From: Naegleria gruberi
Taxonomy: Eukaryota
Assembly (NCBI GenBank): GCA_000004985.1
Contig: GG738924.1
Length of the DNA: 64,000 nucleotides
Reading direction: 5' to 3' (one strand)
Below are positions 9,910 to 62,137 of this stretch, piece by piece. The number at the start of each line of letters is the position of its first letter. Within the stretch, counting starts at the first letter, position 1. The notes beneath the pieces are model-generated. The model worked only from the letters and a program-made list of their open reading frames with translations, ran no database searches and had not been told where the DNA came from. Position numbers and translations under genes: made by a program.

Positions 9910-11190
9910 GCATTTTCAATTATTATCCTAAATAGTTTCCACTCTTTGGAAATTGTTGAGTTCAAATTGAAAGAGATCGGATTGCTACACTGCATTTCTT
10001 TTTATTTTTTTCATGATCTTTTTAAATATTTAATAATTATTGTAAAGTATTAAATAATTATTACAATATTTTTTGTATACACGCAAAGTTCAAGATGAAC
10101 TCTAGAGATAATCACACATATTCATAGATCTTTTTCAAATAGAAAATTCCACTCTAGTCAACTCTTTCCTGATTTTGATTCGTCTTGACTTTTTCAAGAT
10201 TTACTCGAATTGTCTTCCTTAGATTTTGTAAACTTTTTCAAGGCATTAGCTATTAATGTTTGGAATCAATCTGTCAAGTGTTGAGCAAAAATGTAACAAA
10301 AAATCGAGGTTTGTAGTTTTTCTATTTAAAAGTTCAGTTTCAAATAGACTAAGGGTGAAATATGAATCGGTTTGTTTCGAATACAACACCATGAAATTGC
10401 GCAAGGAAACAAGTTTTTGTCAATCAGCTACATAACGGTCCAAGAAATCTCTGTCAAAATTATAAAGATATCTTGCATGTTGGTGAATTGAAAAAAAAGC
10501 AATTATTCTAACTGCTTTCTTGTAGACGAAATATTGTACGAAAGTCAATAGGACAACTTTCTCTGAAGAACGAACAACAAGTAGTAACTGCACCACCAGA
10601 CAATTACCTCAATATCGCTCACAGACAGATTCAACCAACTCAAAGCACCATTGTCCAAACACTACCTTTCTAACAAATTTGATACTATCAGAAACTTTAG
10701 AAATCCAATTGTAAAAATAGATCCCACTATCATTCCAAATCATACACAACCCTCTTTCTAATCTGTCCAAACAAATTACTCATTTGTAGTCGGGTGTATC
10801 TTTTTCAAAATTTAGTAAGTAACGAATAACAATTAAAATATCAGAAAACCTCAACTAAGTAGCTATATATACAATACGCAACGAATACTTGCTGTAAAAC
10901 AACACAACAACAACACACAACTACTTACTACCTCAATATTGTTTTGTTGTTGTTTGAGATCTCGCTTTGTTACTATATTAATAGAATCTTTGCTTTGAAA
11001 AAAAAACAAGCAACATCAAACACTTGCGAATTCATCACATACAACGCAGAGAGTTTTTCAATATAAAGAAAATATACACCACTTTGAAAGTATTCTCTCT
11101 TCCCGCCCGCAGATTTTGTGTTACTAATTACTCAATAAGAATAATAATAATTGTATCCTTTGAATTTTCATTTAAATCAGAATAGAAAGA

Positions 11191-18239: not shown

Positions 18240-18817
18240 ATGCTTTCAAATATTTGTCATAATATGGGTGTTTCCGAGAGTGATTGGAACAAGATGGACC
18301 ACAACTTGGCCACTTGCAACATCTCCGATGAAGACACTTTAAATTCATTCAATAGATATCAAGATTACTCACCACTCACTAAGACAGTGATGGGAAGTAT
18401 TAAGATTGATACCTCCATGAAGGAAGATGCCGTTTTGAAGAGATATTTCAAATTTAAGGAAGGCACGGTGCAGTTGAAGATTACTAGAGAGTTTCAAGAA
18501 AAGTTAGAGTAGGTTTTTATGAAGAATTGATTTGATAATTATTATGTTTTGTATTTTCGGAATTTTATATTAATTTTGAATATGATTTTCTAATTGATGA
18601 TGTAATGGAATTTTAAATTGTATTGAATTGAAAAAGAACCATTGATGAGGTTTCGAGTGTTTTAGTTTCGTTTTTCCCTCAATTCTTTTGTCTTGAGGTT
18701 ACGTGCTCACCAGCAAATTTTGAAATAGTGGAAGAAAAGCTGAAGGAGGATATTGAAAGTGGATGGGTAAGATTATTGGTTTTGGATCCTCTTTCTGATG
18801 ACGACGAAGAGGAATAA
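18240..18817 (+). CDS. Possible small 2-exon gene encoding an acidic-tailed protein (exon 1 18240..18508, exon 2 about 18658..18817)
   Basis: A-run before the ATG. The terminal TAG of ORF 1 overlaps GTAGGT. A 62-codon open exon downstream ends ...WVRLLVLDPLSDDDEEE then TAA. The only phase-compatible acceptor (CGAG at 18657) is weak. Confidence 0.25.
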
Positions 18818-19027
18818 TTGTTTTAAACATTTAAATAATTTGTAAATAATATTAATACCATCAACTCTTCAATTAATTCAATAACAATTAATTCAATTAT
18901 TGAATTAATCAGATTTTGTATGAATCAATATGATTTCTCCATGGATCATCGGTTCCTTTCCGAATACCTTCCGATTCCCAAAGATTGTTTTATTATAAAA
19001 TTGAATTAATTTTACAATAAAAAAACA

Positions 19028-20716
19028 ATGCAACAACAAGAAGTGACAATGAACCTCTCACTCCTTGATGAAAATCTTCTCGGATCTATATTTTCCTTTG
19101 TTCCTATCAATAGATTGGCACTCCTATCACAATCTCGATTAGATTTAGTCTGCAAGAATTTCTACCATTTTCTCCATTTCAAAATTAATTTCTGGCAAAG
19201 AATTTATGGAAGGGAAGTTGATGAAACCAGTTCACAAACCAATCAATCGTACAAGCATACTGTACATTATGTTTTGGAGGAGAAGGAAGCACATGATACA
19301 AAGATTTCAGATGATGAGGAAGGTGATGAGAATTTGATTGATAGCAGTCAATTTTTGTACAGACCTGAACAATATAGTGAGGAAGATAAAAGACAAACTG
19401 ATGTTTTCAGGTGGATGTTGGTTCATTTGATACAGTCGAAGGATAGATTGAGTGTGGGAGGTAATGCTGTGAAGGAGAATTTTCAAGTTGTCTCTTCAAT
19501 CATGACTGAGAGTATTCATTCAAATACTTGCTTTGCCATTTGTAATGTATTTAATAGACATACAGAGTTGATTGCTTCTGGAACTCGTGATGGATTGATT
19601 CATATCTATACTCGAGATTATGGAAAGGAATTTTCTGAGAGATATAACCTTATCAAGAATGATGATGAATACATGCAGGAATCTGACTCTGATTACAAAT
19701 TCAGTCTCAGAGTTAAAAGTGCACACAATGATGAAATTACATGCATGAAATTCTTGAATTCTCAATACTTTACCAAGAGGTCAATGCACTCTGACAATAT
19801 CAATTCTCTTATCCTCCTCACTGGCTCAAAGGATAGAACTCTCAAGATGTGGAAAATTACCTTCTCAGAATTTGAAACATTGAGCGGTAAGAGAAGTATT
19901 TCCATGAAATTAGTTGCCACTTTAGATTCCCATCAGGATTGGATTCGTGACATTACTCTCATCAGTCAACATCCAACTAAGATTGTTACCACATCAAGAG
20001 ATAAGACAATCAAGATTTGGGATTTGAATAGATTGGATAAAGAAATAACTATTGATTTACCAAGTACCTTAGCATGGACTGTAGCAGATCACTTGGATAA
20101 AGGCTATCTCATTGTTGGGTTGGCGAATGGTAATTTACAATTCTATGATGTAATGGGAGGAAAGTTAATATATCAAATGAAAGCTCACTCTGACCTCATA
20201 TCTGACATTCTCTATGTTTCCAATCAGATTAATCCAGATTCTCCTAAACAATTAATTCCACTCATTATTACTATTTCCTACGACAAGTCCATCTCCATAT
20301 TTAATGCCCTTACTTTGGAGAGAGTTATACAAGTGAGTGAAGCTCATTCGACACCTCTGTTTTCTCTTGCATCGAATGGAAAGGATTGTTTCACTACATG
20401 CTCAGTTGACCAATTCGCCAAGCAATGGAAAATAGAGAGGAATGATTGTAAACTAGAGCAGCTACTTATTGGACCAGAGAAGCACAAACAGCTGGTTTCC
20501 CCAAGTCCAGTCAGCTCTATCCTCGAAATTAGCAGTATGTTTAGCACGAGAGAATGTAAAATTGTAACAAGTGGAAGCAAATCATCCAATCCAAGTGCCC
20601 AAGTGATTCATTGGAATATTTATCAGTATGGATATCAGATCAGCAATCTAAGGAAGAGAAGAGACACTACTGTTTCCCAAATGTTCTCCTCACTCCAAAG
20701 AATCAGTACTCTGTGA
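19028..20716 (+). CDS. F-box / WD40-repeat protein (562 aa)
   Basis: F-box LSLLDENLLGSIFSFVPINRLALLSQSRLDLVCKNFYHF. WD40 signatures LTGSKDRTLKMWKI and TTSRDKTIKIWDL. Ends in TGA. Confidence 0.65.
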   Translation: MQQQEVTMNLSLLDENLLGSIFSFVPINRLALLSQSRLDLVCKNFYHFLHFKINFWQRIYGREVDETSSQTNQSYKHTVHYVLEEKEAHDTKISDDEEGDENLIDSSQFLYRPEQYSEEDKRQTDVFRWMLVHLIQSKDRLSVGGNAVKENFQVVSSIMTESIHSNTCFAICNVFNRHTELIASGTRDGLIHIYTRDYGKEFSERYNLIKNDDEYMQESDSDYKFSLRVKSAHNDEITCMKFLNSQYFTKRSMHSDNINSLILLTGSKDRTLKMWKITFSEFETLSGKRSISMKLVATLDSHQDWIRDITLISQHPTKIVTTSRDKTIKIWDLNRLDKEITIDLPSTLAWTVADHLDKGYLIVGLANGNLQFYDVMGGKLIYQMKAHSDLISDILYVSNQINPDSPKQLIPLIITISYDKSISIFNALTLERVIQVSEAHSTPLFSLASNGKDCFTTCSVDQFAKQWKIERNDCKLEQLLIGPEKHKQLVSPSPVSSILEISSMFSTRECKIVTSGSKSSNPSAQVIHWNIYQYGYQISNLRKRRDTTVSQMFSSLQRISTL

Positions 20717-39929: not shown

Positions 39930-40138
39930 TTTTTTTCTTGGTTTTGGCGTACTTGAACATTTTTATTTTTGGGTTACAAAATACACTTCGAATTTTCGCT
40001 GGAACTCAAAGAAAATTTGCAGTAATCGGTGGTTTCACACTTTAAAAAAAAACGAGTTCTCATTCCAACAAGTAACACCCACGCAGTTGTTGTAGTTTGG
40101 AAGAGGAACTTTGAGATTTTTGCAAAAAAAAACAAAAG

Positions 40139-40174
40139 TGGAGTCATAGGGAATCGAACCCTAGACCTTCTGCA

Positions 40175-40205
<31 letters not shown>

Positions 40206-40211
40206 AACCCC
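40139..40211 (-). tRNA. tRNA-Ala(UGC): tRNA-Ala (anticodon UGC), 73 nt, no encoded CCA, Pol III T-tract (TTTT) immediately 3'
   Basis: Reverse complement GGGGTTATAGCTCAGTTGGTAGAGCGTCTGCTTTGCATGCAGAAGGTCTAGGGTTCGATTCCCTATGACTCCA. 7-bp acceptor stem with G3:U70, D-stem GCTC/GAGC, anticodon loop TTTGCAT, T-loop TTCGATT, discriminator A. Confidence 0.92.
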
Positions 40212-50550: not shown

Positions 50551-52683
50551 ATGACTCACAAGAATAACTCTACCACCAACAATACCACAACGTCTTCATC
50601 CATTGACCAAAATGCTACCACTTTTCAATTTCAATTTGTCTTTGACAAGGTCATGCTCAACCAAAGAACATTGAAATTATTCAAAGAATTTCTAATGAAG
50701 AGTTTACATTCCCCAGAAGCTATCCTCTTCTATGAGAAAGTTCTCGAATTTAAATCATTCGAAGGACAAGCTCTGACTGAACATCAGACGAAACTTGCTT
50801 AGAATATTGTGGAGAATGTTATTTTTGTTGGCTCCGCGCATGAAATTAACATTGGAAAAAGAGAGAGAAATCAGGTACTTGAGAGGGTGAAGAGATTATT
50901 AGGTAATAACCCACAAAGAAGTGAAGTTGAGTTGCAATATTTTTCGAATAGTAAGCAAACGCTCAATAAGAAAGAAACCGAAAGTGATGAACAATCAGAA
51001 ACTTCAACAAATAAGCAAAAGAGCTTTTCTTCGATGAATGAGACTTCTACCTTCATAATGGTCGATCCAATTAACATTTTTGATGAAGCATTAGTGACAG
51101 TTAAGAGACAACTCAAAGAAGACGTGTTTCCACTTTTTTTGAGAAGTGACAGATTTCTGACATTTTGTAAGAAGGCATCGAGAGAAACTCTGGGAGAGAT
51201 TGGTTATGAGAGAAGACAGTGTCGTCAATCTGGCAACGTTTCTATTGAAGATTTTTGGAAATTTTACAGAGCTGATTGTGAATCTCTAAATGTCAATGGT
51301 CAAGATGTCAAATTTTTAAGCTCTTTATCAATAGATAGTTCTGATTGGACTCTATTAGAGCAAGAATACTTTAAAAAGAGTTGTTTTGCAACATTTGTTT
51401 CATCTGAAACTCATTGCATGATTAGACCAGAAACTTCCGAATATAGAAATCCAAATTCACAACATATTTACAAATGTACAGGTGTCATTAATCACTCAAC
51501 TGAGAAAGTATTGAAAGCTCTGACAGATTCTCACTTTATGGCCACTTATGATAATAATTTAGCTGTTTGTGAATGCATTGATTTTGTAAATTCTCAAATT
51601 CAAAGCAATTCTCTTCCTGAATCATTATTCGAATTGGACGAAACTGTTCAATTCTCCTCCTCTATCATTCTACAAAATTATCCTTTCAACTGGCCACTTT
51701 CTGGAAGAGATTTCCTCACCAGTCAAACAGATGTCTATGAAAAATCCACTCAACGTTATTTCATTCTCATCAAATCTGTCAACCATCCACTTGCCAAACC
51801 AAAAGAAGGAAGTGTCAGATCTTATCTTGTCGGTGGTTGGATTATTCAACCAATTTCTGATGAATTCTCACGATATACTTTGGTCAATTATATGGATGTG
51901 AATATGAGTGAAAAATTAGTTCAGCAATTTCAACTGAGGAGAGGAAAGAAATTATTCCATTCGTTGAATAAGATATTGAAAGAGATGGACAGGAGTTCAA
52001 TGAATGAGGTGAATGATTCGTGTGGTTTATTGGAAACTTTGGACGAATTTTTGGATTTATACGAAATTAACATTGATGACCAATATAGGAAAGTGAAGAA
52101 ACTAAACAAGATGGAAATGAAGGAACTTCTCACTCCAAGAAAAACTCACCTCGCAAGCACTTCTACCTCAAATCTCGACCACCTTTCGAATAAGATTATT
52201 CGATTGACCTACATTTCCAAATGTAAGAAAAATTTCAATTCTACAGAGCTTGACAAGATTGCAACCACTGCAACTCGATTCAATTCCAGTATCAACGTAA
52301 CTGGTCTCCTTCTCTATTGTAAAGAAGGAATTTTCTATCAAGTATTAGAAGGTGAAAAAGAATTAGTTTCAAATCTATTCGAAAAGATTAAGAAAGATTC
52401 GAGACATTTCGATGTGAAATGTGTCAAAATGGAAACAGATTTATGTGATCGTGATAGACAATTCAAGGGATGGGCCATGAACACAGTTAACTTGGAAACG
52501 TCAGATCATTTCTTTGCTGATTTTATGAAAGAATTATTAGTGACAGTTTCAAAGATGGAGCTCAATAACATGACAGAAGATCAAGCTGTTGGGTTTATAT
52601 TCAAGACATCGAGGCAGATGTTTGAGAAGAGTAGGGAGAGCGGATTTGTTTCGAGATTAGGTTCTTGTTTTTGTATGAAATAA
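50551..52683 (+). CDS. RGS - START - BLUF multidomain signalling protein, interrupted by an in-frame TAG at 50800-50802
   Basis: RGS domain: FDKVMLNQRTLKLFKEFLMKSLHSPEAILFYEKVLEFKS ... [TAG] NIVENVIFVGSAHEINIG ... FDEALVTVKRQLKEDVFPLFLRSDRFLTF. START-like region: YFILIKSVNHPLAKPKEGSVRSYLVGGWIIQPISDEFSRYTLVNYMDVN. BLUF: RLTYISK...INVTGLLLYCKEGIFYQVLEGE...DSRHFDV...RQFKGWAMN. Ends in TAA. Confidence 0.7.
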
Positions 52684-53065: not shown

Positions 53066-56000
53066 ATGAGCAGCGTTGAATATCAGCACGGCAATGAAGT
53101 GCTTTTCATAAAGAAGGGAAGTAGTGGCGAGTCAACCAACAACAATAATAACGCGATGACCACAGAAAGTAATGATCATAAGGCACAGGAATTGGCTCAT
53201 CACGGCGATTCGAAGGATGAACATGTTGATAGTCAACATCATCACCCGAAAGGACCGTTTACATTAACGGCAGATGAATTGTCAGAGATGCATCAGAATA
53301 AGGATTTGAAAGGGTTGCAAAAGATGGGTGGAATGTCTGGTTTGATGAGAGATTTGAAAACTGATGCAAAGAGGGGGATTGCCTGGAAGTCGAATTATCA
53401 AAGTTATGATGAGAGGACGAATCTGTATGGTCTTAATGTGTATCCTGAACCGCCGGCTAAAGGTCTCTTCAAAATATTCTTTGAGGCTCTATCAGACGAA
53501 ACTCACATTATTTTAATGATATTCGCCTTCATTTCGATGGTGTTGGGATTGGCATTTCCTGAATCTGAAGAGGAAAGACCAATTGGTTGGATTGATTCGT
53601 TTGCAATTTATATAGCTGTAGCTATTGTTTGTGTGGTTACAACCGCCAACGACTATTCGAAAGAGAAAAAGTTTAAAAACTTGTCAAGAGAATCCAAAAA
53701 GGTAATGGTTAAGGTTATTAGAGATGGGGAAAATTTTAGCGTTCTCACTGATGATATCAGAGTTGGAGATATTGTTGAAATTGAACAAGGAGATGGTATT
53801 CCAGCTGATGGGCTCTGTATTGAATCAAACCATTTGAAAACAGACGAATCTGTCATGACAGGAGAACCAGATTTGATTAAGAAGAATACAACAGAATTAA
53901 TTTTCTTATTGAGTGGTTGTACAGTTGCTGAAGGTTCTGGAAAGATGCTTGTTACAGGTGTTGGTGTTGGAAGTGAATGGGGAAGAACCTTGCAAAGTTT
54001 GAAAGAAGCCAATGAAGAACAAAGAGAAACTCCTCTCGAAGCCAAATTAGATAAGCTCGCCATCAATATTGGTAAAGTTGGTACTGCATTTGCGATTGGT
54101 ACTGTTACCATTTTGATTTTGGCCTTTTGGATTAAGAAATTGATGTACACTTCAACTTGGGTTGAGGCCTCATCAACATTTGAAGAAACTTGGCAAGAAA
54201 AGAATGTAGTTGATGTGGTCAAGTACTTTATTATTGCTTTGACTATTGTCGTCGTTGCTGTCCCTGAAGGTTTACCACTTGCTGTCACAATTGCTCTTGC
54301 TTACTCTGTTCGTAAAATGATGAAAGATCAGAATTTAGTTAGACACTTGGCAGCTTGTGAGACTATGGGTGGTGCTAACAATATTTGTTCTGACAAGACT
54401 GGTACACTTACTTTGAATCAGATGAGAGTTACCCAAGCTTATTTTGGAGATCGATTCTTTGGTGAGCAATTGAGCTCAATACTGTTGACATTGAAATCAC
54501 CACTGTTGCAAGTAATCATTGATGGTATTGTTGCCAATTCAAAGGCAAACTTGGTCAAGGGTGATGACAATAATAAGAATAAGGAGTATGCCACTCAAGG
54601 AAGTAAGACTGAAGCTGCTCTTTTACTTTTACTTGTCAAACATTTGAATCAGACCATTGACAGTTACAAAGATAGAAGAAATGAATTGCTAAGTGAAGAA
54701 AGAGGCTCTCACCTCCAACTTCCATTCAATTCCAACTTGAAGCGTATGAGTACCATCGTTACAAACTCTGAGGGAGAAACCAGATATCGTCTCTTCACAA
54801 AGGGTGCTTCTGAAATTGTCCTCAAATTGTGCTCCTATCACATGGCTAGTGATGGTTCATTGAGAAAGATGGATTCTGAAAAGGAAGCTGAAATGATGAA
54901 ATGTATTGAAGATATGGCTAATCAAGGTTTGAGAACAATTTGCTTGGCCTACAGAGATGTCAATCCAGAAGTTGAATTCTCATCACGAGCTGATGAAGAA
55001 AATTATTTAGAAAATATTGATCCAGTTACCTTGGAACAAGATTTAGTATGTATTGGTATTGTAGGCATTAAGGATCCATTGAGACCTGAAGTACCAGCAG
55101 CTATTGAACAATGTAAGAAATCAGGTATCACTGTCCGTATGATTACAGGTGACAATATCTTGACAGCCAAGTATATTGCCAGAGAGTGTGGTATCTTGTC
55201 GAAGGATGGTATTGCTATTGAAGGCCCAACATTCAGAAAGATGACTCCAGAGCAAATTGATGAGATTCTTCCAAAATTACAAGTTATGGCTCGTTCCTCA
55301 CCAACTGACAAGTTTATTCTTGTAAAGCATTTGAGAAAGAAGGGTAACGTTGTTGCTGTGACTGGAGATGGTACCAATGATGCTCCAGCTCTTAAAGAAG
55401 CCGATGTTGGATTGAGTATGGGTCTTAGTGGAACCCAGGTTGCTAAGGAAGCTTCTGATATCATTATTTTGGACGATAACTTCTCATCCATTGTTAAGAG
55501 TGTGTTGTGGGGTCGTTCCATTTACGAGAATATCAGAAAGTTTTTAGTTTTCCAATTGACAGTCAACGTGGTTGCTTTGATTTTAACAATTGTTTCTGCT
55601 GTTTCGTCTGCTTTCCAACATAATTCTTCCTATAGGCCACCTTTGAGTCCTGTACAAATGTTGTGGATCAACTTGATCATGGACACGTTTGCAGCTCTCG
55701 CCCTTGCCACAGAACCTCCAATTCCAGAACTTTTAGACAGAAAACCTCACGGAAGAAAGGATTCCCTCATTACAATGAGAATGTGGACCTTCATTGCTGC
55801 TGAATCAATCTTCCAGCTCACTGTCATGTTCACACTCTTCTATGGAGCAACCTCATTCAGAGGACTTTCATTCAGCTTAGCCAGAAATGATGCTGAAATG
55901 AGAACCATCATTTTTAATGCTTTCGTATTTTGTCAAGTTTTCAATCAATTCAACGCAAGAAAGATTAATTTTGAGTATGATATTTTCAGAGGAGTTTTCA

Positions 56001-56317
56001 AGAGTTTCTGGTTTATTGGTATCACCATAATGATTTTCATTTTACAAATTGCCATCATTAACTTTGCCTATTATGATCCAATTCTTATTGGTTTGGGTAA
56101 GAATGATGGTTTGACTGCCTCCAATTTTACCCAGACCATTCCATTGAATTGGTATCAATGGGCCATAACTATTTCCATTGGTTTCATCAGTATTCCATAT
56201 GGCTTTTTAGTGAGATTCGTCAGCAGAATGTTTTTGAAATTATTGAGCTTGAAGAAGAATAACAGACAAATTACCAGTGATGGCTACGAGGAAACCTATT
56301 CCAAAGCAAGTGAATAA
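53066..56317 (+). CDS. Plasma-membrane-type Ca2+-transporting P-type ATPase (PMCA family), 1083 aa, single exon
   Basis: P-type motifs TGES-equivalent region, phosphorylation site CSDKTGTLT, KGAPE-like KGASE, DPLRPEV, TGDN, GDGTNDAPAL. Ten predicted TM segments. Ends in TAA. Confidence 0.92.
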   Translation: MSSVEYQHGNEVLFIKKGSSGESTNNNNNAMTTESNDHKAQELAHHGDSKDEHVDSQHHHPKGPFTLTADELSEMHQNKDLKGLQKMGGMSGLMRDLKTDAKRGIAWKSNYQSYDERTNLYGLNVYPEPPAKGLFKIFFEALSDETHIILMIFAFISMVLGLAFPESEEERPIGWIDSFAIYIAVAIVCVVTTANDYSKEKKFKNLSRESKKVMVKVIRDGENFSVLTDDIRVGDIVEIEQGDGIPADGLCIESNHLKTDESVMTGEPDLIKKNTTELIFLLSGCTVAEGSGKMLVTGVGVGSEWGRTLQSLKEANEEQRETPLEAKLDKLAINIGKVGTAFAIGTVTILILAFWIKKLMYTSTWVEASSTFEETWQEKNVVDVVKYFIIALTIVVVAVPEGLPLAVTIALAYSVRKMMKDQNLVRHLAACETMGGANNICSDKTGTLTLNQMRVTQAYFGDRFFGEQLSSILLTLKSPLLQVIIDGIVANSKANLVKGDDNNKNKEYATQGSKTEAALLLLLVKHLNQTIDSYKDRRNELLSEERGSHLQLPFNSNLKRMSTIVTNSEGETRYRLFTKGASEIVLKLCSYHMASDGSLRKMDSEKEAEMMKCIEDMANQGLRTICLAYRDVNPEVEFSSRADEENYLENIDPVTLEQDLVCIGIVGIKDPLRPEVPAAIEQCKKSGITVRMITGDNILTAKYIARECGILSKDGIAIEGPTFRKMTPEQIDEILPKLQVMARSSPTDKFILVKHLRKKGNVVAVTGDGTNDAPALKEADVGLSMGLSGTQVAKEASDIIILDDNFSSIVKSVLWGRSIYENIRKFLVFQLTVNVVALILTIVSAVSSAFQHNSSYRPPLSPVQMLWINLIMDTFAALALATEPPIPELLDRKPHGRKDSLITMRMWTFIAAESIFQLTVMFTLFYGATSFRGLSFSLARNDAEMRTIIFNAFVFCQVFNQFNARKINFEYDIFRGVFKSFWFIGITIMIFILQIAIINFAYYDPILIGLGKNDGLTASNFTQTIPLNWYQWAITISIGFISIPYGFLVRFVSRMFLKLLSLKKNNRQITSDGYEETYSKASE

Positions 56318-56442
56318 ATTGTATATTATAATATAAAATTAATATTTTGAAAAATTCTTATCAATTATTTACAGTAAACATTTCCCGCCCAACAACAATT
56401 AAAAAATGAAAAAGCAAAGAAAAATTTCATCCATCAAAAAAA

Positions 56443-57210
56443 CACGGGTGGCCGACGCATATCCCTTTTGGCCTGAAATCAGCACTGGGAAAACGTGGGC
56501 CAAGTTGACTTCCAGAGAAATACATAGGTACATGATACCATATTTTCACAGTATGAGTTATCACGCTAAAAAATAATTTTGGAAAACTTTTATTAATTTT
56601 TGTATTGTTTTTGACGAGTTATAAATAAATTCCCATTTTTAGAATTTTTTAAAATGGATTAATATGGTATTATCATAATGAATACAGAAATTCATCAAAT
56701 AATATGAATCAATAATATAAATTGTGTATTAATGTACTTAAATTTCAATTTTCATTAATTCATTCCAACAAATAAAAGACTAGTTATAAAATAATAATAG
56801 GTGTCAATTGACAATCGCATTAATAGATCATACTTTATTTTAAATTGATGATATTTTAACATCACCTTATAGACATTGTATGTATAATATTTTATCATTT
56901 TAGTTGGTTGATATCAGATTATCAACAAGATAGAGCTCAACAAAACATTTTTTCCAAAATATGTTAGTGTTTTCATAAGTAAATTAAAAAAACTGACGAC
57001 AAAAGTTGCTAAATAGTGTTTAGAGAATTTTCACGTATACGACCATGTATAACGTGTTGTAATAAAAAACTAGATAGGGAAAAACATTTAATTCTAAGCT
57101 AAAATTTGAAAATACTTTTATTAACCAATATTTTTCATGTTCTAAAAATAATCAGCTTGTTTGGCCTGAAGGAGACTTCTAAAAAAAATCGCTGGAGTCG
57201 GCCACCCGTG
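56443..57210. mobile_element. MITE-like non-autonomous DNA transposon (768 bp) with 14-bp perfect terminal inverted repeats and 8-bp flanking direct repeats
   Basis: Left end CACGGGTGGCCGAC (56443-56456). Right end GTCGGCCACCCGTG (57197-57210) is its exact reverse complement. Identical CAAAAAAA flanks at 56435-56442 and 57211-57218 (candidate 8-bp TSD, hAT-like). Subterminal TTGGCCTGAA motifs at both ends. AT-rich non-coding interior. Confidence 0.45.
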
Positions 57211-57250
57211 CAAAAAAACAAAATAAAAATTTCAATATTATTCACTCACA

Positions 57251-58627
57251 TTAATACTCATCATCTTCTTGATTGGAAGAACTTTCATCATCATTGTATC
57301 CGTACCGTTGATTCCATCGACTAGAATGAACATACTCCCTCTCTGTAGTTGTAATTTCAGGCTGAAATTCAGATAAATTTAAATAGCCTTCATTCATCTT
57401 GGCTTGATTGTTGTTGGAGTGATGATGAGAAGCAGCAGCAACACCTCCTCCTTCTCCCATCTTGCTAGCTTTACAGATGGGACACGGATACTCCTTATTA
57501 AAGCCTTTCCATGCCTTTAAACAATCCGCATGAACATTTACTCCACAACAATGACAATATCCTGCCTCCTTCTGTTCATCAAGTTGAGAAAATCCATCAC
57601 AACAAATAGGACAATTGGAAGTGATGAAGGGATTTCTCTCCTCTTCTCCTTTTAGATGTTTGTAGGTGGCTATGGCTTGTGAATTTGCCATTGAATTATT
57701 AGCTGGAGCCTTCTTGAATATTTCCTCTAATTCTGATGGTAGCAAGGCATGTTGATAGATGAGATAGGAAGACTCTTCTATACGTAGTACCTTCAACAGA
57801 ACGAATAACTTAATTTACACAACATAATAATAATAATTAACAATATATATTTACATCACGATTAACAACGAATAGATAATTAATTAGAGAGGAGAAAGTA
57901 CTTACAACATGTTTACACAGATTACCATTCTCTGCATCAGGACAATTACACGAAGGTTCTTCACCAATAACAACATCATAGACATTACCTGTTGTTCCCA
58001 TCACGACAAATGTCTGCTCATGAGCACTATTTACCTTTCTTTCTATGAGGAATAATCTACGTGATATGTGTTAAATAGTAGTATTTCATATCATTATTGA
58101 ATTAATTGTGAAATTATTGGAACAACCTACTTTTGAGTGAGAGCTCTTTCAATTCTTTCTTGAGTTTTAATTGGACAACTGGAAACAAATCTTCTCTTTC
58201 TATGTTCTTTAGATTTGTGAGAGCTAATGTGATGATGAGTGGTTGCTGCAACCTCAGCTGGTTCTTCCTTTTTTGAAATGGACAAGGAACTGAATGAATG
58301 TGGATGCAACAAATCCTCCTCCAGAATATCATCACTCACCTTCTCCTTCTTTGGACTTTCTTCCTTCTTTAATTCGGAATCATTGTGTTTTCTCTTCTCT
58401 CCATGATGATCATGATGATGTTCCTCCACCAAATGATTGAATTCTTTAATCTTTTCAATTAATTCTTCCTTTCTCAAATGGGAACAACCATGATAAATTC
58501 CCAAATCTTTCATGTGTTGTTTTAATTGGTCAACTGTGAGAGCCCACAAGTCCAAATCACTGTAGAATACTTTAAAACTGCCAGATGATGATGTAGCAGT
58601 AGAATGATGATGATCAGTTTGATGCAT
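57251..58627 (-). CDS. SAP - SWIM zinc finger - RING-type E3 ubiquitin ligase-like protein, 3 exons (58627..58131, 58056..57906, 57790..57251)
   Basis: Exon 1 has a SAP-like LTVDQLKQHMKDLGIYHGCSHLRKEELIEKI. Intron 58130..58057 (GTAGGT...CACGTAG, 74 nt). Exon 2 has the SWIM CxCxnCxH (CNCPDAENGNLCKHV). Intron 57905..57791 (GTAAGT...TTGAAG, 115 nt). Exon 3 has RING-like CPICCDGF...CHCCGVNVHADCL...CPIC. Ends in TAA. Confidence 0.65.
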
Positions 58628-61072: not shown

Positions 61073-62137
61073 ATGACAAGACACATTGTTTGTTGTCTCT
61101 TAATTTTGACATTGTCATCATTTATTCTGTGTGGTAAACCTTCCCTACCAACAAGTGTCACTGATTCTCTTCAACCATGTTCACATTCTTCCAAAAATGG
61201 TGATTTCTGCACTTTACCACTTTTATCAGCAAATCCAACACAAATTCCAGTTGGTTTGGGTGAAATTTACTGTAAAATTCAAAAATTAGAAAATGAATAT
61301 TCCTCCGAAAAGAAATTAATTGAAAAATATTTATATAAAAATCCAGTGCCAGTTGTCAAGGGACCTTTGACAGATGGCAGTGGATTGGGATTATATGTGG
61401 TAGATCATCATCATTTGATTGTTTCCATGTATTCAGCTAGTTTTGATAAGACTGATTTTCCAACTTTTCATTCTGCCAAAAATAGATATGTCATTGCTCA
61501 AGTTGTCAATGACGTTTCTAATAATTTTACATCTGCTAATGAAGCTTTTTGGAATAGTATGTTTGGTAAGGGATATGCCTATCCAAAGGATGAATATGGT
61601 AAAAATTTGACAACTGGCATGTTTATTCAACAATTGCCACGTGACATTTTGTCAATGAGAAATGATCCTTACAGAGCTCTCTCATATTATGACAGATCTT
61701 ATGGTGGATATGGAAAAACTGACACTTCCATCTATTTTGTTGATTTTGTTTGGGGAAATTTCTTGAGAGAATTTGGTGGACCTGACATGTCAGCTCATTT
61801 ACAACCATTTATTGGAATTCAAGTTAAAAATGCACCTGTCACCAAGTCATCAGTCACTCCAAGTGGTGCCAAGACCAATTCCTATACCATGAAGGAAGAA
61901 TTCAAAGTTCAAAAGTCATTAATTGGAGCTGCAGTTGCAATCTCAAAATCTTCAGCTGCCAAAGGATTGCCAGGTTACATGCAAGGAACAGTTGATCCTC
62001 CATATTGTTTGGCAAGTTATCAAGTTGTTTCTTCATCAACAACTAGTGGTGGTAGTAGTACTGGAGATGCAAGTGAGAAGAAGAAGAAGATTATTTTATT
62101 GTCTGATAATTTGGAAGATGAGGAATATGATGAATAA
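61073..62137 (+). CDS. Hypothetical secreted protein with an acidic C-terminal tail
   Basis: N-terminal MTRHIVCCLLILTLSSFILCG is signal-peptide-like. A VVDHHHLIV motif is faintly ParB/sulfiredoxin-like (unverified). Ends ...LEDEEYDE then TAA. Confidence 0.45.
   Translation: MTRHIVCCLLILTLSSFILCGKPSLPTSVTDSLQPCSHSSKNGDFCTLPLLSANPTQIPVGLGEIYCKIQKLENEYSSEKKLIEKYLYKNPVPVVKGPLTDGSGLGLYVVDHHHLIVSMYSASFDKTDFPTFHSAKNRYVIAQVVNDVSNNFTSANEAFWNSMFGKGYAYPKDEYGKNLTTGMFIQQLPRDILSMRNDPYRALSYYDRSYGGYGKTDTSIYFVDFVWGNFLREFGGPDMSAHLQPFIGIQVKNAPVTKSSVTPSGAKTNSYTMKEEFKVQKSLIGAAVAISKSSAAKGLPGYMQGTVDPPYCLASYQVVSSSTTSGGSSTGDASEKKKKIILLSDNLEDEEYDE

What the first reader, a model, noticed from the sequence alone, without database searches (positions are those of the whole stretch)
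56435..57218. MITE-like DNA transposon between two convergent genes
An exact 14-bp inverted repeat (CACGGGTGGCCGAC / GTCGGCCACCCGTG) bounds a 768-bp AT-rich non-coding segment. The sequence immediately outside each end is the identical 8-mer CAAAAAAA, the size of a hAT-type target-site duplication. Both ends also carry a subterminal TTGGCCTGAA motif. The IR core is an unusually GC-rich island in very AT-rich intergenic DNA. It lies between the 3' ends of the Ca2+-ATPase gene and the SAP-SWIM-RING gene.
Basis: seen in the sequence. Interest (0 to 1): 0.55.

Follow-up and report, generated by a model that had tools for sequence, protein, structure and literature searches.

The report
Likely small transposon insertion in Naegleria
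A 768-base non-coding stretch between two genes of the amoeba Naegleria gruberi has all the structural marks of a small "cut-and-paste" jumping-gene remnant, which is an ordinary kind of genome feature; whether other copies exist could not be checked.

Summary
An exact 14-bp inverted repeat (CACGGGTGGCCGAC, 56443-56456 and 57197-57210) bounds a 768-bp, 27% GC, ORF-free segment. It is flanked by identical 8-mers CAAAAAAA, and only a length of 8 makes the two flanks identical. The terminal ~60 bp at each end hold 5 of the window's 47 GGCC sites, as (T)TGGCC motifs. Removing the segment plus one 8-mer shrinks the gap between the two convergent genes from 933 bp to 157 bp; the other four such gaps are 89-352 bp. 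The window is Naegleria gruberi. The best reading is one insertion of a non-autonomous TIR DNA transposon that makes 8-bp target duplications. It is hAT-like by TSD, TIR length and subterminal repeats. Its terminus CACGG departs from the hAT motif YARNG at position 3, and CAC..GTG ends also occur in other groups, so the superfamily stays open. The key test, further copies or an autonomous partner, could not be run: no N. gruberi DNA outside the window was reachable, and metagenome, viral and peptide searches gave only chance hits. No usable empty site was found. This is an ordinary feature, probably a new member of a known kind, of low interest.

The parts
56435..56442 (.). Left copy of the 8-bp target-site duplication, CAAAAAAA
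   Evidence: Read directly. Identical to 57211-57218. CAAAAAAA occurs only 10 times on this strand in 64 kb. P(two random 8-mers identical) = 6.4e-5.
56443..57210 (.). The inserted element: 768 bp, non-coding, 27% GC, with GC-rich ends and an AT-rich interior
   Evidence: No Pfam match in any of the six frames. No Rfam match. No other copy in the window.
56443..56456 (+). Left terminal inverted repeat, CACGGGTGGCCGAC (11/14 G+C)
   Evidence: I6. GC-rich exact 14-mer inverted pairs are expected at 0.005 per window.
56467..56477 (+). Left subterminal motif TTTGGCCTGAA (contains TGGCC)
   Evidence: D10. An 11-mer shared between the two 80-bp subterminal regions arises in 0.2% of shuffles.
56498..56503 (-). 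Third left-end motif, GGCCAA (TTGGCC on the minus strand)
   Evidence: TTGGCC/GGCCAA occurs 3 times in the terminal 120 bp against 0.043 expected (post-hoc P about 1e-5).
57160..57170 (+). Right subterminal motif TTTGGCCTGAA, same strand as the left copy (direct repeat)
   Evidence: (D10).
57197..57210 (-). Right terminal inverted repeat, GTCGGCCACCCGTG on the + strand
   Evidence: I6. Similarity between the two ends in inverted orientation does not extend significantly beyond 14 bp.
57211..57218 (.). Right copy of the 8-bp target-site duplication, CAAAAAAA
53066..56317 (+). Upstream flanking gene: plasma-membrane-type Ca2+-ATPase; its stop codon lies 125 bp before the element
   Evidence: The 1083-aa ORF is 100% identical over its full length to a Naegleria gruberi protein.
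57251..58627 (-). Downstream flanking gene (convergent): SAP-like / SWIM / RING protein in three ORF segments; its stop codon lies 40 bp from the element's right end
   Evidence: ORFs. Pfam zf-RING_2 (25.2 bits, just under the 27.3 cut-off), SWIM (above cut-off) and Rho_N/SAP-like (below cut-off).

Best explanation
The 768-bp segment at 56443-57210 is one insertion of a non-autonomous class II (cut-and-paste) DNA transposon in the Naegleria gruberi genome.

Inferred mechanism:
- A transposase encoded elsewhere bound the 14-bp terminal inverted repeats and the (T)TGGCC repeats clustered within about 60 bp of each end.
- It excised the element from a donor site.
- It joined the element to a target cut with an 8-bp stagger in the A-rich spacer between the 3' ends of the Ca2+-ATPase gene and the SAP-SWIM-RING gene.
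- Repair of the stagger produced the CAAAAAAA duplication.

Shown: the anatomy and its statistical non-randomness. Inferred: the insertion event, mobilisation in trans, and the role of the TGGCC repeats.

The 8-bp duplication, the short TIR and the asymmetric subterminal repeats make a hAT-type transposase the most likely agent (roughly 45% of the total probability). Other superfamilies that make 8-bp duplications are not excluded. The perfect TIRs and TSD suggest a fairly recent event, or one with little decay.
For: - Exact 14-bp GC-rich inverted repeat, unique in the window. Such pairs are expected at 0.005 per window.
- Abutting identical 8-mers, with identity only at length 8. P = 6.4e-5 for two random 8-mers. 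None of 100 simulated windows gave this combination.
- 5 of the window's 47 GGCC sites sit in the terminal ~60 bp of each end. An 11-mer is shared by both subterminal regions (0.2% of shuffles).
- The ends are 54-58% GC and the interior 15-29%.
- No ORF, Pfam domain or Rfam family lies inside.
- The gap between the convergent genes is 933 bp here and 89-352 bp at the other four convergent ORF pairs. It becomes 157 bp after removing the element and one 8-mer.
- Literature: hAT elements typically have 8-bp TSDs (PMC3014272). hAT transposases use short subterminal repeats arranged asymmetrically at the two ends (bioRxiv 10.1101/2022.09.16.508221; PMC3143072).
Against: - Only one copy was seen. 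There is no second copy or related terminus in the 64-kb window.
- No transposase is encoded in the window.
- No related sequence appeared in the metagenome or viral collections; all hits were chance matches in unrelated, mostly GC-rich contigs.
- Peptide searches with ORFs spanning the ends found nothing related.
- No empty site was found. Related species and contigs have different neighbours at both genes.
- The terminus CACGG differs from hAT YARNG at position 3. The target CAAAAAAA lacks the T at position 2 of the Ac-type preference.
- 768 bp is large for a MITE in the strict sense.
Confidence: 0.72

Rival explanations
1. It is a transposon insertion, but of a superfamily other than hAT that also makes 8-bp duplications. 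Candidates are Zisupton/Dileera (KDZ) and, from general knowledge, P or short-TSD Mutator-like elements. The CAC..GTG ends would reflect that ancestry.
For: - Zisupton/Dileera make 8-bp TSDs, and Kyakuja (KDZ) has 5'-CA..TG-3' termini with 7-bp TSDs (PMC12730594).
- The terminus CACGG fails YARNG at position 3.
- The single target does not fit the hAT target preferences.
Against: - The paper read reports no TIRs for Kyakuja.
- Nothing in the accessible literature reports KDZ, P or hAT elements in Naegleria; Kolobok is the one DNA-transposon superfamily mentioned there, and it makes TTAA duplications.
- The short TIR plus asymmetric subterminal repeats is the classic hAT layout.
Confidence: 0.2
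2. It is not mobile. The two GC-rich ends are paired binding sites for a host DNA-binding protein, forming for example a boundary or termination element between convergent genes. The A-runs are ordinary 3'-flank sequence.
For: - The site lies between two convergent 3' ends, 40 bp from one stop codon.
- TGGCC motifs are clustered, which suggests protein binding.
- Only a single copy was observed.
Against: - This does not explain why the abutting 8-mers are identical in direct orientation (P about 6e-5).
- It does not explain why this gap is about 600-800 bp longer than other convergent gaps.
- No other convergent pair in the window carries anything similar.
Confidence: 0.05
3. It is an insertion by another route. 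One option is a circular element integrated by a site-specific (tyrosine) recombinase at a CAAAAAAA core. Another is a foreign fragment captured during double-strand-break repair using A-run microhomology.
For: Flanking direct repeats in an A-rich, low-complexity target could arise by recombination at a shared core or by microhomology.
Against: - Perfect 14-bp terminal inverted repeats placed exactly at the junctions are not expected from either route.
- No recombinase or other coding capacity is present.
Confidence: 0.02
4. It is a chance coincidence, or an unannotated structured RNA gene whose ends pair.
For: The RNA fold is more stable than shuffles (z = -3.1 and -4.2), with the 14-bp stem closing the molecule.
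Against: - The excess stability of about 20 kcal/mol is about what the terminal GC-rich stem alone would contribute (my estimate; not computed separately).
- There is no Rfam match.
- The simulations exclude chance.
Confidence: 0.01

Closest known systems
Non-autonomous hAT elements and hAT-type MITEs (hobo/Ac/Tam3 superfamily, such as Ds-like deletion derivatives)
   Same: - 8-bp target-site duplication.
- Short (14-bp) TIR beginning with CA and with G at position 5.
- Short sequence motifs repeated in both orientations, arranged differently at the two ends, within the first ~60 bp.
- No coding capacity.

   Different: - Position 3 of the terminus is C, whereas YARNG requires a purine.
- The target CAAAAAAA fits neither nTnnnnAn nor nnnTAnnn.
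- No hAT transposase or sister copies could be shown.
- No report of hAT elements in Naegleria was found in the accessible literature.
CACTA/EnSpm and the wider CMCT clade (Mirage, Chapaev, Transib)
   Same: Termini 5'-CAC..GTG-3' (PMC12730594).
   Different: That clade makes 2-5 bp TSDs (3 bp for EnSpm). Here the abutting 2-5-mers are not identical (AAA against CAA), and only 8 bp gives identity.
Zisupton / Dileera / Kyakuja (KDZ) transposons
   Same: 8-bp TSD (Zisupton, Dileera). CA..TG termini (Kyakuja, which has a 7-bp TSD).
   Different: These are known mainly from fungi and some animals as large coding elements. The paper read reports no TIRs for Kyakuja. Nothing here links the element to a KDZ transposase.
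Classical plant and animal MITEs (Tourist/Stowaway type)
   Same: Non-coding, with TIR plus TSD, AT-rich, inserted close to genes.
   Different: Those have TA or TWA duplications, are usually under 600 bp, and have high copy number. This element is 768 bp with an 8-bp TSD, and its copy number is unknown.

Membership tests
hAT superfamily (non-autonomous member) | 8-bp target-site duplication | tested here: met
   CAAAAAAA abuts both ends, and identity holds only at length 8. The 8-bp criterion is from PMC3014272 and the Hermes preprint.
hAT superfamily (non-autonomous member) | Terminal motif YARNG | tested here: not met
   The terminus is CACGG. Y, A and G fit, but position 3 is C and not a purine (criterion). 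It is a near miss at 4 of 5 positions.
hAT superfamily (non-autonomous member) | Target preference nTnnnnAn (Ac type) or nnnTAnnn (Buster type) | tested here: inconclusive
   CAAAAAAA has A at position 7 but not T at position 2, and AA where TA would be expected. A statistical preference cannot be judged from one site.
hAT superfamily (non-autonomous member) | Short subterminal repeats near both ends that serve as transposase binding sites | tested here: met
   Five GGCC-core motifs ((T)TGGCC / GGCCA(A)) lie within ~60 bp of the ends against 0.09 expected. An 11-mer is shared by both ends. Binding itself was not tested.
hAT superfamily (non-autonomous member) | A hAT transposase (BED finger, RNase-H-like core, hATC domain) in the same genome, on an element with the same termini | not testable with these tools
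   N. gruberi DNA outside the window is not indexed. No transposase is in the window.
MITE (as a class) | Small, non-coding, TIR plus TSD | tested here: met
   768 bp (upper end of the usual size range), no ORF over 56 aa, no Pfam hit in six frames, 14-bp TIR, 8-bp TSD.
MITE (as a class) | Multiple homogeneous copies in the genome | not testable with these tools
   There is one copy in 64 kb. The rest of the genome is unreachable. Metagenome, viral and peptide searches gave only chance hits.
CACTA/EnSpm (CMCT clade) | CAC..GTG termini | tested here: met
   criterion.
CACTA/EnSpm (CMCT clade) | 2-5 bp (typically 3 bp) TSD | tested here: not met
   The abutting 3-mers are AAA and CAA. No length below 8 gives identical flanks.
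Zisupton/KDZ | 8-bp TSD (7 bp in Kyakuja) and a KDZ transposase | tested here: inconclusive
   The TSD length fits. The transposase is not testable.
Tc1/mariner, PIF/Harbinger, piggyBac/Kolobok | TA, TWA or TTAA target duplications | tested here: not met
   The flanks are ...AAA|CAC and GTG|CAA.... The other criteria are from general knowledge.

The most novel reading that the evidence does not exclude
The element could belong to a heterolobosean transposon lineage that combines CMCT/CACTA-like CAC..GTG termini with an 8-bp target duplication. No superfamily described in the papers read here combines these two features together with TIRs. Separately, lying 40 bp beyond the RING gene's stop codon, it could now supply the 3'-end or termination signals for one or both convergent genes.
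Probability: 0.08. Interest if true: 0.4.

Novelty: new member of a known kind. Interest (0 to 1): 0.17.

Why it matters
If confirmed, it adds a DNA-transposon family with defined ends to the poorly documented mobile-element repertoire of Naegleria gruberi, a model heterolobosean. No description of such an element was found in the accessible literature. It would give a handle (the 14-bp TIR) for finding the autonomous partner and insertion polymorphisms between strains. Beyond genome annotation, the consequences are small. A TIR element with an 8-bp duplication in a gene-dense protist genome is expected biology.

Tried and rejected
1. Fetching the source genome. Exact-protein look-ups for the window's ATPase, its database twin P0001 and the N. 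gruberi paralogue P0004 all returned "not on record". No genome-wide copy count was therefore possible.

2. Empty-site comparison.
- The closest ATPase homologues, in N. lovaniensis (L001/L002) and an ENA contig (L178), are followed by a prefoldin gene, not the RING gene.
- The only RING-gene homologues (48% identity, two ENA contigs of about 1.6 kb) have no ATPase downstream; in L180 the next gene reads as thioredoxin-like, and L179 holds only about 220 bp downstream.
- None of these loci contains the 14-mer with 3 or fewer mismatches.

3. Metagenome scan with TIR plus 6 degenerate bases. It gave 55 hits, all in 51-76% GC contigs, with no extension of similarity and no inverted partner; these are chance matches.

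4. Viral contig scans. The 14-mer gave 120+ single hits, none paired or extended. The 20-mer gave 5 chance hits. The subterminal 19-mer gave none.

5. Peptide searches with ORFs spanning the ends, hoping for spurious ORF calls in sister copies. The left end gave only three weak hits; the two examined are unrelated tandem-repeat proteins. The right end gave nothing.

6. Coding remnants and RNA families inside the element. None were found.

7. Structured-RNA reading. The fold z-scores appear to be explained by the terminal stem.

8. Extended TIR. Similarity in inverted orientation beyond 14 bp is not significant.

9. Literature. Five topical searches found nothing on MITEs or hAT elements in Naegleria. 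A search for the TIR string returned unrelated papers. The N. gruberi genome paper is not held. A remembered resemblance to the rice nDart hAT terminus could not be verified and is not used as evidence.

10. CACTA, Tc1/mariner, PIF and piggyBac readings were rejected on TSD length and sequence.

Full report
**What is there**

Reading 56200-57500 confirms the finding as written.
- CACGGGTGGCCGAC lies at 56443-56456 and its exact reverse complement at 57197-57210.
- These are the only two occurrences in the window even with two mismatches allowed; 0.03 are expected.
- The unit including both arms is 768 bp, with 740 bp between the arms (I6).
- The 8 bases just outside each arm are CAAAAAAA (56435-56442 and 57211-57218).
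- Because the 8-mer is C followed by seven A, the flanks are identical only at length 8. For shorter lengths the left flank reads A^n and the right CA^(n-1), and at 9 they differ again. The duplication length is therefore not ambiguous despite the A-run.
Both copies are on the same strand, so it is a direct repeat (D10).

**Is it more than chance**

- The window has only two exact 14-mer inverted pairs within 3 kb. The other is AAAAAAAATGACAA, with no flank identity.
- In 200 first-order Markov simulations, AT-rich pairs are common (mean 4 per window), but pairs with at least 8 G+C occur at 0.005 per window. This pair has 11.
- Two random 8-mers of the window are identical with P = 6.4e-5.
- None of 100 second-order simulations gave an 8-bp flank repeat abutting a 12/12 inverted terminus.
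- Five of the window's 47 GGCC sites fall in the terminal ~60 bp of the two ends, against 0.09 expected. TTGGCC/GGCCAA occurs three times there, against 0.04 expected (post-hoc tests).
- GC is 58% and 54% in the terminal 48-bp bins and 15-29% inside.

**Context**

- The 1083-aa ORF at 53066-56317 is 100% identical over its full length to a Naegleria gruberi Ca2+-ATPase. The window is therefore N. gruberi nuclear DNA (about 33% GC).
- The minus-strand gene downstream has RING (57251-57796), SWIM (57837-58004) and SAP-like (58127-58627) segments.
- The two genes converge. The element starts 125 bp after the ATPase stop codon and ends 40 bp from the RING gene's stop codon.
- The gap between the two stop codons is 933 bp. 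The other four convergent ORF pairs in the window have gaps of 89, 103, 265 and 352 bp. Removing the element and one 8-mer leaves 157 bp.
- Inside the element there is no ORF above 56 aa, no Pfam match in any frame and no Rfam match.
- The RNA fold z-scores (-3.1 and -4.2) amount to roughly the energy I would expect from the 14-bp GC-rich closing stem alone; this was not computed separately.
- None of the window's larger ORFs is a transposase.

**Interpretation**

The anatomy is that of one insertion of a non-autonomous cut-and-paste DNA transposon:
- a short perfect TIR;
- an exact target duplication;
- GC-richer ends carrying a repeated short motif in both orientations;
- a non-coding AT-rich interior;
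- a host gap that returns to normal size when the unit is removed.

The mechanism is inferred, not shown. A transposase encoded elsewhere would bind the TIRs and the (T)TGGCC repeats, excise the element, and insert it at an 8-bp staggered cut, which repair turns into the CAAAAAAA duplication. The intact TIRs and TSD (44 bases without a change) suggest limited decay since insertion.

**Which superfamily**

- *hAT, in favour.* hAT elements are described as having 8-bp TSDs and YARNG termini (PMC3014272). Their transposases recognise short subterminal repeats that are arranged asymmetrically at the two ends. TSD length, TIR length and subterminal repeats all fit.
- *hAT, against.* The terminus CACGG has C where YARNG requires a purine. 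The single target matches neither the Ac-type nTnnnnAn nor the Buster-type nnnTAnnn preference.
- *CACTA/EnSpm and the CMCT clade.* CAC..GTG termini are typical of this clade, but it makes 2-5 bp duplications, which the flanks exclude.
- *KDZ.* Zisupton and Dileera make 8-bp duplications, and Kyakuja has CA..TG ends, so a KDZ-type origin is not excluded.
- *Tc1/mariner, PIF and piggyBac/Kolobok.* These are excluded by the flanks.

I put about 0.72 on "non-autonomous TIR transposon insertion". Of the total, roughly 0.45 is hAT and 0.2 another 8-bp-TSD superfamily.

**What could not be done**

The decisive test is further copies, or an autonomous partner with the same ends. That needs the rest of the genome, and no N. 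gruberi DNA was reachable.
- Scans of metagenome and viral collections with the terminus gave only chance matches, most of them in GC-rich contigs.
- Peptide searches with ORFs crossing the ends gave nothing real.
- No empty site was available. ATPase homologues in N. lovaniensis and an ENA contig are followed by prefoldin. RING-gene homologues on two short ENA contigs show no ATPase downstream.
- The accessible literature says nothing on MITEs or hAT elements in Naegleria. It mentions only Kolobok there. The genome paper is not held.

**Verdict**

This is an ordinary kind of feature, at most a new member of a known kind, and of low interest.

Noticed in passing
window 56409-56429 and 57214-57234: An imperfect 21-bp A-rich direct repeat, AAAAAGCAAAGAAAAATTTCA / AAAAACAAAATAAAAATTTCA (18/21), lies in the two flanks (D2). 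With the element and one 8-mer removed the two copies would sit 29 bp apart, so the target may have been a small local tandem repeat. The sequence is low-complexity and the significance is doubtful.
   Followed up: partly
window 10488-11004: A weak second TIR/TSD-like candidate in an intergenic region. A 10-bp direct repeat TTGAAAAAAA flanks 497 bp whose ends are inverted at 10/12 (AGCAATTATTCT / AGCAAAGATTCT). Two such 10-bp cases in the window have P of about 0.03 in simulations. The other, 18597-20154, overlaps an ORF. The termini are unrelated to the main element.
   Followed up: partly
window 40138-40211 (-): A tRNA-Ala(TGC) gene, the only Rfam or ARAGORN hit in the window.
   Followed up: no
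L001 and L002 (N. lovaniensis PYSW02000053.1, 142614-165838 and 44030-67254 reversed): The same 166-kb contig carries two copies, in opposite orientation, of a segment of at least 23 kb. The gene order is essentially the same in both: MCM, GFA, ribosomal L4, Ca2+-ATPase (identical protein), prefoldin, exportin, NHL. This is either a large inverted segmental duplication or an assembly artefact.
   Followed up: no
window 53066-56317, compared with L001, L002 and L178: The closest ATPase homologues in N. lovaniensis and an ENA Naegleria-like contig (72-73% identity) are followed by a prefoldin gene. N. gruberi also has a paralogue at 73% identity (P0004). The window's copy may therefore be a lineage-specific paralogue, or it may sit at a synteny break.
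   Followed up: partly
window 50809-52683 (+) and 61073-62137 (+): An ORF with a BLUF blue-light sensor domain (E = 5e-25) and an ORF with a ParB-like nuclease domain (PF08857, E = 4e-34). Both domain types are better known from bacteria.
   Followed up: no
window 57251-57796 (-): The RING-containing ORF found no N. gruberi or other named Naegleria protein in the large protein database. Only two anonymous ENA metagenome proteins matched, at 48% identity. The gene is either poorly represented or fast-evolving.
   Followed up: partly
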